A program made the position numbers and the translations under genes. Source: Cetorhinus maximus (Eukaryota). From it: a DNA stretch of 64,000 nt. The notes below the pieces were generated by a model that was given only the letters and a program-made list of their open reading frames with translations, had not been told where the DNA came from and ran no database searches. Shown piece after piece: positions 1,727 through 64,000 of this stretch (positions are counted from its first letter, which is position 1; each line of letters begins with the position of its first letter). Location: the NCBI RefSeq assembly GCF_964194155.1, contig NC_135891.1, forward strand, positions 93,868,001 through 93,932,000, written 5' to 3'.

Positions 1727-2789
1727 ACCATCTGATGTAATCTCTCCTTCTTTATCTTGGTGTCAGTTTTTTGCCTGATTCCATTCCTGTGAAACCATTT
1801 GGGATTTTTTACTGCGATAAAGACACTCTATAAACACAACTTGTTGTTTATGGTGCAGCTTACCTCGAAAATTGTTGCAGTTATGGTTGCAAAGGATGTT
1901 GACTGTGCCAACTTGCACCTCCAATGTGTTCATTATCCCTCCACGCCAGTTCCCAATCCCATTTTAGAGATCGGCTGCAGCTTTCAACATGCTGGCAATT
2001 CACCTTCCAGGGTTTAAGTGTAATAGTTTCTACAGTGCTCAGCCATATGTGGTTCTCTTTATTTTTATCCTTTTGGCTTTAAAATCTTTAATGCAATCAA
2101 GTTGAGGGTGTCTTGACTTGTTACAGTTGCAACAGAGAAATTATTCCTTTCTTGTCTATGTTCATTTGCATCCATTGAGGATTAATGTACGAACATCATG
2201 TTATGCAATGGGCTAGTTCCTCACATTGCATCATGCAACAATGTGGGCGAAACTCATCAACGTTACTATGTGATGCCTCTGCGTGCATCTGCATAGTGTG
2301 CAGACTGACTTTAACAACGCCTGAAAAAATGTTAAAAATACAGCCCCAACATTGCTCCCAATCCCTTAACCCGGCCACAGGGACTGGCAGAGCATTGAGG
2401 AAGATTGCTTTGCCCACTCATGCCCACATTTGATCGTCCGAGTATGACCTTTCGCACTCCCTAACAAAAGGTTCAGGGCCACAGCTGCAGGCTGGCCACC
2501 AACCTCAGGGCTTTCTGGCTTCAGAGCACAACCAGGAGATCCCAAAGCCCAAAGTTCCCTGAAAAGAAAAGGTAAATCTTACCATATGGACCCTTACTTG
2601 CTGACCTCCTCAAACTTTCCAATCTGGGAGCATCCCAGGAAAAAGGCTCAAGACCAACTTCTTGCAGATCCACTGGAAGGAGGCACTCATTGATTGTTTG
2701 AGAAGATACGAGGGAAAGCCAAGAAATCCCCTCCAAATCATTTCCATGCCAATACTGGGCTTCCACCCTAGGACAATGTGAAGGAAGCA

Positions 2790-3020
2790 GAAATAAAAAC
2801 AGAAAATGCTGGAAAAACTCAGCAGGTCTGGCAGCATCTGTGGAGAGAGAAACAGAGTTAACGTTTCAAGTTCATATGACTCTTCTTCAGACTTTAGAGT
2901 ACTCTGCAGGAAAGTCCAACTCTATTTCTCTCTCCACAGATGCTGCCAAACCAGCTGAGTTTCTTCAGCATTTTCTGTTTATGTTTCAGATTTGCAGCAT
3001 CCGCAGTATTTTGCTTTTAT
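2790..3020. mobile_element. Miniature fold-back Penelope-derived insertion with a hammerhead motif
   Basis: Inverted arms at about 2790-2860 and 2918-2990 (gctggaaaaactcagcaggtctggcagcatctgtggagagaga vs tctctctccacagatgctgccaaaccagctgagtttcttcagc). These are the same termini as at 42762-44709. The minus strand carries CTGAAGA..GAAACGTT at 2856-2894. Confidence 0.7.
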
Positions 3021-3722
3021 TAAAGAAGGCAGACTTGGTTTAAGAGGTTTCTGCCCCCTTTTTCCTGACATTTTTCCCTGATGTTCCCCAGAGGTAAAAA
3101 CTAAGAAAACGAGCTCCAATTACCCTCAGTATGTTGGTGTAGATTAATGCCTTGTCCATTTGTGATTTAAAATTAAAATAGATTATGTCATATACCTGAA
3201 ATTAGCAGCAATTGTTCTTTTTAATTCACTAGGATATAAAATGTTTACACATCCTTTTGAACCTATTGGAATCTGTGAACTGGCATTATTACTTGCAGGA
3301 TTTCTGAATTCTCAATGTAACCTTCATGTCTTGCCAACCATTTTGCTGAAAAACTGTAAGTTGGCATAAAAATTACCAGTAGTCAGGGTACTTACCCTGA
3401 GATTTCTGTTAATTCAATACAGAAACCTGCATCCTGTGGGGCTCTCAGGCAGAAAAGAATGTTGGAGAACTTCAAATGACTTTCTCTTTTACAATATTTG
3501 GATCATTCTTATTTTTTTTCCAGGTTTCAATTATGCTGGAGGCTAAGTTTATGTTGTTTCAGATCTCCTTCCATGTGGCAACTTTCCTGAATGATTTCTG
3601 GAGTTTCCCTAACACTGAACAGGTGGCCAAACCTTCAGGTGTTCCTAAGAGGCGTATGGAGAGGTGGATTATGATACAGTGTGTGTGAGACTACTGGAAG
3701 AAATAAGATCAGTGGGTTATGT

Positions 3723-3878
3723 TTCGTTGTTGACATTTTCGAGCACATCGCCTCCGAGGCCTTGTGCTTAATTCACTACAACAAGCGCCACACCATCTCG
3801 GCTAGAGAGATCCAGAGCACCGTCCGCCTCACGCTGCTAGGGGAACTGGCCAAACACGCCACCTCCGAAGGCATGAAA
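3723..3878 (+). pseudogene. H2B: Histone H2B fragment (52 codons, C-terminal half of the histone fold)
   Basis: [52 protein letters not shown] aligns without gaps to canonical H2B [52 protein letters not shown]. The N-terminus and the C-terminal AVTKY are absent. Confidence 0.9.
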
Positions 3879-3924
3879 CTCTTTCGAGTTATCAACAGTC
3901 ACAGACTGCAACTCTTTTGAGTAC

Positions 3925-60088: not shown

Positions 60089-60164
60089 CAGAATCACAGA
60101 ATTGTTATGGCACAGAAGGAGGCCATTTGGACCATCGTATCTGCACCAGCTCTCCAAATGAGCA
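60089..60164 (-). mobile_element. CR1 3' tail joined to the Gypsy polypurine tract
   Basis: Minus strand: gagagctggtgcagatacgatggtccaaatggcctccttctgtgcc...ttctgtgattctg. Confidence 0.8.
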
Positions 60165-63100
60165 TTCCCCCACATTTAATTCAGCTATACATACTATGTT
60201 TATAAGTACAAATTTTTTCAAGACAGCATAATATTTACACTGGGTAAGGAACTTACAAGTTCAGTTTTTCAGGTAGTTCCCTGGTACGTGTGGAACGTCG
60301 CAGCTCCACAGCTTCAGATTCTTTGTCAGGGGCCTCCTTTTCTGGAGTTGCCTGAACATCAGGTGCTTCAGTGGGCATTTGCAGTTCTGTATCCTTAACT
60401 CTTACAGGGACATCAGACATGTCAGTCCTGGGTTGAATATCCTCAACAGGAAACACAGACCCGGTCATGATTACTGGTGGGACCACGTCTTGGCGATTTG
60501 TCTCTCTCTTCCTTAAATGGTCCACATGTTTATGGATGATCTGACCTTCCACCTCCATGTGGTAAGATAGAGATCCTGTCACTGTACTTATTTCACCCAG
60601 TAACCACTTTGGTCCTTCCCCGAAGTTCTTCACCTATACTGGCTCTCCCACGGTAAATTTCCTCTCATGACTATGCCAGTCGTGTCTGGTTTTCTGCCTT
60701 CGCTGACTCCTTTCCACCTTCCCCTCTAAATTCAGCATTATTAAGCTCAATCTTGTCTTTAGACAGTGTTTCAACAATACCTCTGCAGGTGTGACACCTG
60801 TTGTTGTGTGAGGGATAGTCCTGTAATTAAAAAGAAAGTGTGCCAGCTTGGTTGTCAAGGAATCACCAGTTTGCTTTTTAATGCCTGCCTTGAACATGTG
60901 AACCGCCCTTTCGGCCAGTCCATTTGAGGAAGGGTGGCATGGTACAGTTTTCACATGAGTGATACTATTGAGACTGATAAACCATTGAAACTCAGCACTC
61001 ATAAATGCCATGCCATTATCGGAAATTACTACTTCTGGTAGTCCGTGAATGGAAAAACTCTGACGTAGTTTCTCAATTGTAGTGACCGACGTTAGTAACT
61101 TCACCTCATATACATCCCACCATTTTGAATGGGCATTGACAATAAGCAGAAACATTGTTCCCAGGAAAGGCCCAACGTAGTTAATATGTAACTGTACCCA
61201 GGGTCTACCTGGCCACTCCCATGGGTGTAATGGAGCTGTCACTGGCAACTTTTGCAGTTGCTGACATTGCACACAGTGCTTTACTAAACTCTCTCTTTTG
61301 CCATCCATCCCTGGCCACCATGCATGTTATGATCTTCATTTGGGAAATTCCTGGATTGGCACTGTGTAGTTCAATTAAAAGAGGCTCCCTTCCCTTTGGA
61401 GGCATATTACTCATGCTCCCCACAATAAGATGCCATCCTGGCTGGTTATTTTGTGTCTTCTGTTGAAATACGGTTTCATTTAATCAGATATAGGCTCCTG
61501 TGGCCAACCATGTAGCACTTGAGATAGGACTGGGTTCAGACTTGTCCAGTCACTGATCTGACAAGCACATACAGGCAAGGAATCTAAGAAATTTAACAAT
61601 ACAACAAGTTCCTGTGGAACTGGTACGTGCTCATCATTTTCTTGTAAAGTCAAACGACTAAGGGCGTCGGCGTTTGCGATTTGATTGCCAGGCCAATGTA
61701 CGAGAGTGTATTCGTATGCTGCCAGAATTAAGGCCCATTGTTGTATTCTTGCTGAGGCTATGGGTGGTATAATCTTGTCCTCACTAAAGAATCCTAGCAA
61801 TGGTTTGTGGTCTAAACTGATTGTAAAATGGCGGCCATGTACATACTGGTGACTACTGACACCAAAGATGATGGACAGACCTTCTTTTTCTATCTGCGTG
61901 TATCGCTTTTCTGCTGTGGTGAGCGTTCTTGATACGTAACCTATTGGGCGTTCCGTGCCATCATCCATCCGATGAGAGAGCACTGCTCCCACTCCGTAGG
62001 GAGATGCATCACATGTCAGCACCAATTCTTTCATCTGGTCATAATGCACGGTTGGACGGGTGCTACAATTGTTTCACCTTTATGAAAGCTTCTTTCTGGG
62101 GCGCCTCCCAAGACCAATGTTGATTCTTTTTGAGTAGAGAATGCGGGGGGGCCAGAACTGTAGACAAATTGAGTAAAGACCGCCCATGATAGTTGATCAT
62201 TCCTAGGAATGATTTGAGCTCTGAGGCGTTCTTTGGCGCAGTTGCCTCTCTTATGGCTTTCACTTTCTCCTCAACTGGGTGGAGGCCCTGTGAATCTACT
62301 AGTGACCCAAATAGATCACCTCCCTCACTTGGAACGTGCAGACTTTAATCTAGGCCTTCTTTTTGACTTCACTGTTGGCCAGACTTCTCTCAGATGCAAG
62401 CTCAACATGCCTGAGCTCAGTGGCTAAGTCTCCCAAAATTTCATTATCTGTCTGCTTCTTGGAAAATACTGTGACTTTTGCTTCCAAAGCCTCTTTGGCT
62501 CCATTTAGCCTATTCTTCAGCTCTTCCATCTCTTTTTTGCATTTGTTTGCTGCCTCCTGGAAAATTGAGCATGGTTGTGTCTTCTCTGCCAACTCATTCT
62601 TCAGCTTGTTCAGAGAGGTGCTGAATTCTTTCTGTTTCTCTTCATACTTTTCCAGAGGTACAAACTTTGACCTGAGGGAATCTTGTAATGCGTGAAGGTC
62701 TTTCAACAGATTTTCTTTTTCCCTTCGAAGGTTGCTGCCCTCATCTCGACCTCTGTCATCAAGCAGGATCTCTTTGACTTTTTTCTATTGTTCTTCCAGG
62801 ATTTGGTTTAAGACAGCCTGCAATTCTTCAGATTGTTGAGTCCTTGCACACTCCTTTTTCAAAACAGGAATGCTTCCAGCTTCTTTTTGGAATCTTACTG
62901 GCCAATCAAGGTTGATTTCCCTTAGCCAATTTTGCCCTACAAGGCTTGGTCCTCTGCCTCTCAATGCTAACACTGGTAGCTTTGCCAATTGACTTCCATA
63001 ATGGACAGTTATTTGCTTATGCCTTTTCCTTGAATGTCCACACCCGTATATGTTTTTAGCTTGGCAGCTGTTTCTTCTAAACTTAATTGATGTTCACCAT

Positions 63101-64000
63101 TATTCAAATATCTGAAGGTATGTTCCTCAATTACTGTAATGGAAGCTTCCATGTCCACTTCTATTCTAATAGGTTTGCCATTTACTTTCATTGTGACAAA
63201 TATTGGTTCTGTCTTTCCAACTTCCAGATTAAACAATGAGTAAATGTCTGAATTTGTTGTTTCAGGCTCTTTTATATTGTAGATTTCATTGGGCTTCTTC
63301 TTTTGTTTACAGGGCTGCTTGATTCTTTCCTTGCATTGCCTTATCATATGTCCATTTCTGTGACGATAGTAGCATTCGATTTTTTTAAACTACCAATCAC
63401 TAAAAGCCTGATTGTCTCCATCTCTATTAAAATTATTCTTTGATTTCACTGCTAAGTTATTTTTCATTATTCTTCGGTTAGCAGGAGCTGTTTCCCGCTT
63501 CTCAGCAGAGTCTCGATTTTTTGCGTCACTTTCGGCTGAGGTTTCCCACCCTATGTGGAGGACAGCGCCATTTTGCTTTTGAATCTCTTACTGTGCTTTC
63601 CATGGCCAGCACTATCTCTCGCGCCTTCTTGAAATCCAGATTCACTTTGGACAATAACCTTTTCTGAATAGTGTCCTCCTTCACACTACACACTAAACGA
63701 TCTCTGATCATGTCTTGCACCGAACTCACAATGTTTCATTAGCTGCTTCAAATTTGCCATGTGGCATGCAATTGTCTCACCCGGGGCTCTATTTCATGAA
63801 TTAAACCTGAACCCCTGCATCGTGACTGAGGGCTTTGGTTGAAGTTGACCCTTCATGAGGTCCACCAATTCTTCAAAGTTTTTTGAATCTTGGGCACTGG
63901 GTGCAATCACCTTTGAATAAATCCATAGGTTTTGCTCCCACAAATATTCAAAGGATTGCTCACCTCTTCTCTTCCTATGTAATCTCATTTGCTTGAAAAG
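60165..64000 (-). mobile_element. Gypsy LTR retrotransposon 3 (internal region, runs off the window), RT core replaced
   Basis: gag (MIRDRLV...IQKRLL, degenerate CCHC ECYYRHRNGHMIRQC), protease EVDMEASITVI, RT thumb CTFQVREVIYLGH and KSFLGMINY, RNase [15 protein letters not shown], integrase CVQC..SDNG..SNGLAER. PPT at 60165-60177. Confidence 0.92.
62350..62860 (-). pseudogene. Captured host-like coiled-coil fragment, UACA/RAI14/ANKRD24-family-like
   Basis: One frame reads ECARTQQSEELQAVLNQILEEQ*KKVKEILL..NLRREKENLLKDLHALQDSLRSKFVPLEKYEEKQKEFSTSLNKLKNELAEKTQPCSIFQEAANKCKKEMEELKNRL. It aligns ungapped over about 65 aa with my recollection of UACA KELDTIQECIKVKYAPIVSFEECERKFKATEKELKDQLSEQTQKYSVSEEEVKKNKQENDKLK. 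There are no RT motifs. Confidence 0.7.

What the first reader, a model, noticed from the sequence alone, without database searches (positions are those of the whole stretch)
62300..62990. Gypsy element whose reverse-transcriptase core is swapped in frame for a host coiled-coil (UACA-like) segment
Seen in sequence: the pol frame runs from the post-protease motif (GPSLVGQNWLREINLDW, W at 62902-04) into about 170 codons of heptad-rich sequence. It then returns, still in the same frame, to the RT thumb motif (IKVCTFQVREVIYLGH, from 62349 down). Only two TAG codons interrupt it (62785-87 and 62350-52). ORFs 62785-62988 and 62350-62706 share a frame and are bridged by 26 open codons. The RT palm (LPFG/YxDD) is absent, while RNase H and integrase follow normally. 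From knowledge: the insert has the (F/Y)VPL..(Y/H)EE motif and spacing of UACA/RAI14-family coiled coils, and LTR elements can capture mRNA by template switching. Inference: frame preservation at both junctions suggests a non-autonomous Gypsy family that once expressed a Gag-PR-coiled-coil-RH-IN polyprotein and spread a host gene fragment, like a defective transducing retrovirus.
Basis: partly seen in the sequence, partly recalled or inferred. Interest (0 to 1): 0.75.

Follow-up and report, generated by a model that had tools for sequence, protein, structure and literature searches.

The report
Relayed host coiled-coil in shark retrotransposon
A shark jumping-gene family with hundreds of decayed copies has a piece of the host gene UACA in place of its copying enzyme, likely handed on from an older jumping gene that had collected pieces of three host genes; the piece likely stayed under selection as a protein tail while the family spread, which makes this an unusually complete record of a known kind of gene capture.

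Summary
The capture is real; the proposed polyprotein is not. Window 62861-62342 replaces the RT core of a Gypsy element. It derives from the large coiled-coil exon of host UACA (68% DNA identity; stingray UACA E 2.5e-15). The 5' junction occurs exactly 214 times in the genome, and RT-intact relatives of the same age exist. The insert carries a 450-base deletion and a non-UACA tail that occur in an older non-autonomous LTR family holding UACA, ninein and spliced TPR pieces, so it likely came second-hand. The in-frame 3' junction is peculiar to this copy. In the family the frame stops after the insert: 18 of 23 type-A junctions share one shifted frame, and only 10 of 79 type-B junctions are in frame. 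The product would be Gag-protease-coiled coil. In-frame joints are weak evidence, since 53-77% of microhomologies in these exons are in frame anyway. Selection is supported otherwise: no family-wide stop or frameshift, and dN/dS 0.46 on the stem against 0.86 after insertion. New variant of LTR-mediated retroposition (Bs1, CrocERV29/31). Expression not shown.

The parts
63526..64000 (-). gag region, broken by stops and frameshifts; the element goes on beyond the window to a ~247-base 5' LTR (window-equivalent 64435-64190) and a PBS-like site
   Evidence: gag identity from position and recalled motifs, no Pfam hit
63009..63389 (-). zinc knuckle and N-terminal half of the aspartic protease (active-site motif decayed in this copy)
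   Evidence: weak Pfam Asp_protease_2 E 0.08; 8 of 30 chimeric and 7 of 18 RT-type copies read EVDTGAS
62890..62980 (-). end of protease next to the joint; only 60% identical to RT-intact copies while the rest of the element is 83-89%: likely the old flank of the original capture
62513..62861 (-). captured piece 1: host UACA large exon (L032 reverse, 3008-3359), 68% DNA identity
   Evidence: protein match to stingray UACA aa 904-1031, 39%
62412..62521 (-). captured piece 2: same exon from 3801 on, after a 450-base in-frame deletion at a 9-base repeat, shared with donor-family copies
62342..62411 (-). tail of unassigned origin shared with the donor family (lies between its UACA and ninein pieces); no match to UACA or to the ninein exon
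62063..62340 (-). RT thumb/connection of the Gypsy element; joint in frame in this copy, frame lost after 16 codons
61480..62073 (-). RNase H (absent from type-A copies)
   Evidence: PF17917 E 4.5e-29
60253..61326 (-). integrase and its C-terminal extension, one stop between them
   Evidence: PF17921 and PF00665, E 6e-5 each, below cut-off
60163..60175 (-). polypurine tract and first TG of the 3' LTR; the 3' LTR is missing in this copy, a LINE-type tail follows
   Evidence: comparison with L170; LINE assignment recalled

Best explanation
This is one decayed copy of a non-autonomous Gypsy LTR family in which a 520-base UACA-derived coiled-coil piece replaces the reverse-transcriptase core; the piece likely came by template switching from an older LTR element carrying UACA, ninein and spliced TPR fragments, and the family's frame stops just after it, so its product would be Gag-protease-coiled coil without RNase H or integrase. 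Step 1 (shown in outcome): a ~4.2-kb LTR element ('O') took up three host mRNA pieces; the TPR piece lacks its introns. Step 2 (inferred): a deletion variant of O gave part of its cargo to a different Gypsy family, in frame behind the protease. Step 3 (inferred from identity profiles): the chimera was copied in trans by its RT-intact partner and kept recombining with it, so that only the insert and ~90 flanking bases stayed old; this gave type A (no thumb/RNase H), type B (thumb onward restored, out of frame) and others. Step 4 (inferred): elements that still translated an intact Gag-PR-tail protein were copied more, most likely because Gag made in cis helps package its own RNA and a helical tail in the place of RT is tolerated or helps the protease pair up. 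Confidence about 0.9 for the anatomy and relay, about 0.55 for selection on the tail's amino acids.
For: UACA: E 2.5e-15, named stingray UACA, host exon C27:11440485-11443211, DNA E 3e-53. Family: 29 of 29 closest copies share the 5' joint; 214 exact 5' joints, 149 type-A, 79 type-B. Partner: 26 of 29 thumb/RNase H hits lack the insert, 22 of them show RT motifs, RVT_1 E 7.7e-22. Donor: O copies 77-85% to the host exon, LTR pairs 74-85% identical, TPR (PF25481 above cut-off; 6-9 host exons abut in each of 6 copies), ninein; same 450-base deletion and tail; in the tree, 3 of 4 deletion copies lie on the path from host to window family. Frame ends after insert. Recombination: chimeric/intact identity equals within-group identity in all shared segments but 62980-62890. 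Selection: 60 frameshifts against 6 in-frame indels in 50 copies, none family-wide; commonest stop 17 of 50 at a CpG codon; chance of no stop over the stem 0.4-8%; dN/dS stem 0.46 (0.28-0.76) against 0.86 (0.68-1.09) terminal, bootstrap P 0.007. The insert folds as long helices, pLDDT 85.
Against: No proof of transcription or protein: the runs that cover it are contigs only guessed to be RNA. dN/dS rests on 153 codons, a three-way distance decomposition and high dS; a first version gave P 0.013 and 0.054; O copies give 0.70, so the neutral baseline may be below 1. The stem mixes time in the O lineage with time in the window family. Over the longer gag-to-insert distance single copies are too decayed to show the frame (7 of 21 in frame from the ATG, 15 of 37 from the zinc knuckle). 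One deletion copy (L041) groups with undeleted O copies and several of these forks have modest support. O's own autonomous partner was not found (0 of 19 loci with PR/RT similarity). Counts come from the best-ranked copies.
Confidence: 0.7

Rival explanations
1. Passenger: the insert is filler. Only an open frame (ribosome read-through for RNA stability or cis packaging) was selected, or none at all; its amino acids do not matter.
For: In-frame joints are largely explained by codon-phased microhomology, 58-77% within UACA and 53-65% between UACA and ninein. Cargo differs among related families: type C has no gag-PR and another UACA piece. The stem still gathered dN 0.23.
Against: dN/dS 0.46, upper bound 0.76, close to the host gene's own 0.56; selection against stops alone would lower dN only slightly (inference).
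Confidence: 0.3
2. One reading: the family made a Gag-PR-coiled-coil-RH-IN polyprotein and supplied its own RNase H and integrase.
For: The window's joint is in frame; 10 of 79 type-B joints are too.
Against: 54 of 79 type-B joints share one shifted frame, and in-frame ones are rarer than one third (P 4e-5); 23 of 29 closest copies lack thumb and RNase H, 18 of them in one shifted frame with a stop.
Confidence: 0.04
3. The constraint arose while a chimeric copy served as a host gene, which later seeded the family.
For: Stem dN/dS resembles the host value; gene models exist on such sequences (P0002, P0003).
Against: No stop-free, low-divergence source locus among the copies seen; all but ~90 flanking bases track the RT-intact partner, as expected for a replicating element.
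Confidence: 0.08
4. The cargo works as RNA: host-like sequence shields the element from small-RNA silencing (camouflage, as argued for maize captures in PMC13317346 section 11).
For: Cargo is sense host mRNA in very many copies.
Against: The window insert is only ~70% identical to the host, with synonymous sites the most changed (dS 0.70), the opposite of what RNA mimicry needs.
Confidence: 0.05

Closest known systems
LTR-mediated retroposition (Tan et al. 2016, PMC5131818; abstract and sections 6 and 9 read)
   Same: Partial mRNA pieces inside LTR elements, microsimilarity at switch points, several parental genes in one chimera, secondary retroposition as non-autonomous elements.
   Different: Their cases are young and few in copy; here copies run to hundreds or more, cargo passed from one LTR family to another, and the stem shows purifying selection.
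Maize Bs1 (as described in PMC5131818 section 9 and passages of PMC13317346; primary papers not read)
   Same: LTR element with pieces of three host genes; closest to donor family O.
   Different: Bs1 has 1-5 copies and enzyme/transporter cargo; O has only long coiled-coil cargo (UACA, ninein, TPR), far more copies, and donated cargo onward.
Crocodilian CrocERV29 (KIT ligand) and CrocERV31 (nectin3) (Chong et al. 2014, PMC4299795; passages read)
   Same: Vertebrate LTR lineages that replicated after capturing host mRNA, with purifying selection on the cargo and, in CrocERV31, loss of a viral gene.
   Different: Those are retroviruses with whole-ORF cargo as extra or env-replacing ORFs; here a Gypsy element, a gene fragment fused behind the protease in place of RT.
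Defective transducing retroviruses with Gag-onc fusions (recalled)
   Same: Host fragment fused to Gag at the cost of pol; helper dependence.
   Different: No env or extracellular stage seen; cargo has no catalytic domain; spread is germline retrotransposition.

Membership tests
Ty3/Gypsy LTR retrotransposon | pol order PR-RT-RH-IN | tested here: met
   PR, thumb, RH, IN in this order in the window; RT between PR and RH in RT-intact relatives
Ty3/Gypsy LTR retrotransposon | two LTRs, PBS and PPT | tested here: met
   18 of 20 fetched copies gave two LTR hits, 85-94% identical; the window copy keeps the 5' LTR beyond the window end and the PPT but has lost the 3' LTR
Ty3/Gypsy LTR retrotransposon (autonomous) | RT catalytic core | tested here: not met
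   no RVT_1 hit in the window frame: non-autonomous derivative
Ty3/Gypsy LTR retrotransposon | clade placement by RT phylogeny | not tested
LTR-mediated retrocopy | partial host coding sequence flanked by LTR-element sequence | tested here: met
LTR-mediated retrocopy | intron loss | tested here: inconclusive
   the UACA piece lies within one exon, so it cannot show this; the TPR piece of the donor does, 6-9 exons abut in each of 6 copies
LTR-mediated retrocopy | microsimilarity at switch points | tested here: inconclusive
   clear at the internal deletion (9 bases) and in the A-rich type-B joint; the 5' joint is too old to place exactly
LTR-mediated retrocopy | secondary retroposition with shared switch points | tested here: met
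   214 exact 5' joints
LTR-mediated retrocopy | co-transcription from the LTR | tested here: inconclusive
   only contigs of runs guessed to be RNA
UACA-derived sequence | source is UACA rather than a paralog | tested here: met
   the host exon is the top genome hit of stingray UACA, 62% over 909 aa; O copies are 77-85% identical to it and share deletion and tail with the insert; RAI14 and ANKRD24 loci were not compared directly
Defective transducing retrovirus | env or extracellular spread | tested here: not met
   about 80 bases between the integrase stop and the PPT; RT-intact copies are 4.7 kb
Defective transducing retrovirus | expressed Gag-host fusion protein | not testable with these tools
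   inferred from frame statistics only
Gypsy-type origin of donor family O | gag similarity and an autonomous partner | tested here: inconclusive
   LTRs, PBS- and PPT-like sites present; its first ORF has no Pfam hit and no match to the window family; gag identity recalled; no PR/RT in 19 loci

The most novel reading that the evidence does not exclude
A parasite-of-a-parasite that swapped RT for a host coiled coil because the coil does RT's structural job: the UACA helix pairs the Gag-protease precursors, lets the chimera build and mature particles in cis while borrowing RT and integrase, and shark non-autonomous LTR families traded such host coiled coils (UACA, ninein, TPR) as interchangeable assembly modules.
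Probability: 0.2. Interest if true: 0.8.

Novelty: new variant of a known kind. Interest (0 to 1): 0.58.

Why it matters
It records host-gene capture in two steps across LTR families, with host gene, donor element, recipient and helper all in one genome, so order of events and selection can be measured. If the constraint on the tail holds, it shows captured host protein being used by a Gypsy element, not merely carried. It also warns annotators: hundreds to thousands of UACA, ninein and TPR look-alikes and some 'uncharacterized' gene models in this shark are element cargo. The control shows that in-frame chimeric joints between coiled-coil genes arise by composition alone.

Tried and rejected
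Word-index search for longer homologs of the insert found none; the HMMER search did. Pfam gave only sub-threshold coiled-coil hits; the ESM Atlas gave mixed coiled-coil clusters with low recognition, not used. P0005, a bacterial repeat protein, is a compositional hit. In-frame joints as evidence of selection (8 of 10 distinct UACA deletions, 12 of 14 ninein-TPR joints, 3 of 6 UACA-ninein joints) were set aside after the microhomology control. Ninein as source of the window's tail: score 29, within shuffles. P0002 and P0003 (basking shark gene models, 73% and 54%) are not counted as a second species: nothing shows that they come from a genome other than this one. Small-share runs, among them a coral metatranscriptome, were not used. 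Presence of family O in other runs and a homodimer prediction gave no result, so both stay open. Earlier scan notes: none bore on this. One script failed and was rerun; one Pfam scan used wrong frames (redone for RT).

Full report
1. Observation. The minus-strand frame runs from the protease end (W 62904-62902) through the insert with two TAGs (62787-85, 62352-50) into IKVCTFQVREVIYLGH and is lost at 62301. RNase H (PF17917, E 4.5e-29) and integrase follow in broken frames. No RT core is present. The 5' LTR lies just beyond the window; the 3' LTR is missing. Matches to ray and shark proteins (62-98%) point to a shark genome (inference).

2. Source of the insert. HMMER over 1.8 billion representatives gave 6 hits, among them stingray UACA (E 2.5e-15). 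That protein finds one intact 911-codon exon in the genome, C27:11440485-11443211. Window 62861-62513 matches exon positions 3008-3359 (68%), and 62521-62412 matches from 3801 on; the 450 bases between are deleted at a 9-base repeat. The last ~70 bases match neither UACA nor the ninein exon. A single-sequence model is almost all helix (pLDDT 85, pTM 0.31).

3. A family, not a one-off. The insert gave 3651 first-look candidates; the 39 best other matches are 90-92% identical. Of these I fetched 29; all share the 5' joint. Exact patterns count 214 5' joints, 149 type-A and 79 type-B 3' joints, with 0 in the reversed controls; these are floors, since only 13 and 3 of 29 close copies match the first two patterns exactly. 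A search with the thumb/RNase H part gave 29 other loci: 26 lack the insert, 22 of them with RT motifs; one gives RVT_1 at E 7.7e-22. LTR pairs are 85-94% identical in 9 type-A, 5 type-B and 4 RT-intact copies (18 of 20; three rest on under 100 bases), so all three kinds moved in the same period; no absolute date was possible. Contigs from runs labelled as three organisms cover the insert, and one listed piece from each organism bridges the 5' joint (X1, X5, X9); one of these organisms may be the window's own.

4. The frame ends after the insert. Among the 29 copies, 23 are type A (insert joined to the end of RNase H, thumb and most of RNase H gone), 5 type B (thumb onward present), 1 other. 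18 of 23 type-A joints share one shifted frame, most with a stop right after the tail, e.g. L016 ...KAHRKKIQKY*. Of 79 type-B joints 54 share one shifted frame, 15 the other, 10 are in frame (P 4e-5 against one third). The window's joint is 17-20 bases shorter than the two common type-B forms, a private deletion that happens to be in frame. On the 5' side the linker-to-insert distance is in frame in 34 of 46 copies, and the commonest distances from the protease site (495) and zinc knuckle (693) are multiples of three, although only 20 of 42 and 15 of 37 single copies keep that frame. The product would thus be Gag-PR-coiled coil.

5. The donor. The UACA search also found copies with longer pieces, 77-85% identical to the host and without the window family's flanks. 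They belong to a ~4.2-kb element with 250-base LTRs 74-85% identical, hence older. It carries UACA 2362-3912, then ninein, then TPR. The host TPR gene at C18:68.55-68.59 Mb has this stretch in short exons; in each of 6 copies tested 6-9 exons abut without introns, which shows capture through spliced RNA. The 450-base deletion and the tail occur in O copies (L041-L043, L119, L180, L190, L192, L195), and window 62861-62342 aligns to L042/L043 end to end. In a tree of 27 rows the window family is one group (100/100) on a stem of about 0.2 changes per site; L042, L043 and L119 branch between it and the host, L041 does not (midpoint root for drawing only). Relay through O is the simplest reading (inference).

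6. Exchange with the helper. Chimeric and RT-intact copies are as alike to each other (83-89%) as within groups in LTR, gag, protease, RNase H and integrase, but only 60% alike in the 90 bases before the insert, where synonymous sites are saturated and the motif is kept. This fits repeated template switching with a co-packaged partner (inference; model in PMC5131818).

7. Selection. Against: joints in frame prove little, because 58-77% of microhomologies within the UACA piece and 53-65% between UACA and ninein are in frame. For: after insertion, 50 copies gathered 60 frameshifting and 6 in-frame indels, yet none is family-wide, and the commonest stop (17 of 50) is at a CpG codon; the window's two stops are shared by 3 and 1 of 49. 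Under neutral change a 117-codon frame escapes stops over the stem in 0.4-8% of simulations. Pairwise distances on 153 codons (38 window-family copies, 11 O copies, host) give dN/dS 0.46 on the stem (0.28-0.76), 0.86 terminal, 0.70 for O copies, 0.56 for the host; P 0.007; a cruder run gave P 0.013 and 0.054. This is moderate evidence. Why a coil would help is inferred: retroviral proteases work as dimers, and leucine zippers placed at the C-terminus of HIV protease force dimer formation, there at the cost of particle yield (passage in PMC8537868, citing a paper not read), so the effect could cut either way.

8. Known kinds and novelty. The mechanism is LTR-mediated retroposition (PMC5131818: abstract, sections 6 and 9); O resembles maize Bs1 (passages in PMC5131818 and PMC13317346); selected cargo in vertebrate LTR lineages is known from crocodilian ERVs (PMC4299795, passages). 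PMC5408684 (abstract only) and PMC5381603 (passages) added context only. Searches for this case found nothing relevant: UACA + retrotransposon + captured, 1 unrelated listing; shark genome + LTR retrotransposon + captured + TPR, 0; searches listed no paper on it by title. Repbase, Dfam and supplements were not searched, so an unannotated entry may exist. New are the relay between LTR families, the replacement of RT by a host coil under selection, and the scale. Verdict: new variant of a known kind, interest 0.58.

Noticed in passing
L074 (G000:C1:64393745-64397950), L075, L076 and relatives: Older ~4.2-kb non-autonomous LTR family 'O': gag-like start, UACA exon piece, ~60-base linker, ninein piece, spliced TPR piece, all sense. 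First looks gave 5844 candidates for the TPR piece and 7331 for its first ORF (candidates, not copies); 17 of 19 loci found by that ORF carry UACA. It deserves a finding of its own.
   Followed up: partly
L083, L088, L089, L097, L098, L101, L102, L104: Type C: same LTR and 3' half as the window family, no gag-protease, short tandem repeats, another UACA piece (2951-3099, in 7 of 8) and the same tail and type-B joint (8 of 30 type-B loci).
   Followed up: partly
window 60090-60163 and beyond 64435 (L031): The element sits in a CR1-like LINE (recalled motifs); its 3' LTR is gone, apparently deleted between the PPT and the LINE tail.
   Followed up: partly
G000:C3:202201891-202222128: Five type-A joints spaced 4.5-5.3 kb apart: a tandem array of the chimeric element.
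   Followed up: no
L008 near its 3' joint: A third kind of joint: insert tail fused into the middle of RNase H at a 7-base microhomology.
   Followed up: no
run X1, record 5: In organism A a contig has 180 other bases in place of window 62734-62851: a further insert variant.
   Followed up: no
L033, L034, L036: O copies with the end of the UACA piece (about 3840-3912) moved in front of its start: internal rearrangement shared by several copies.
   Followed up: no
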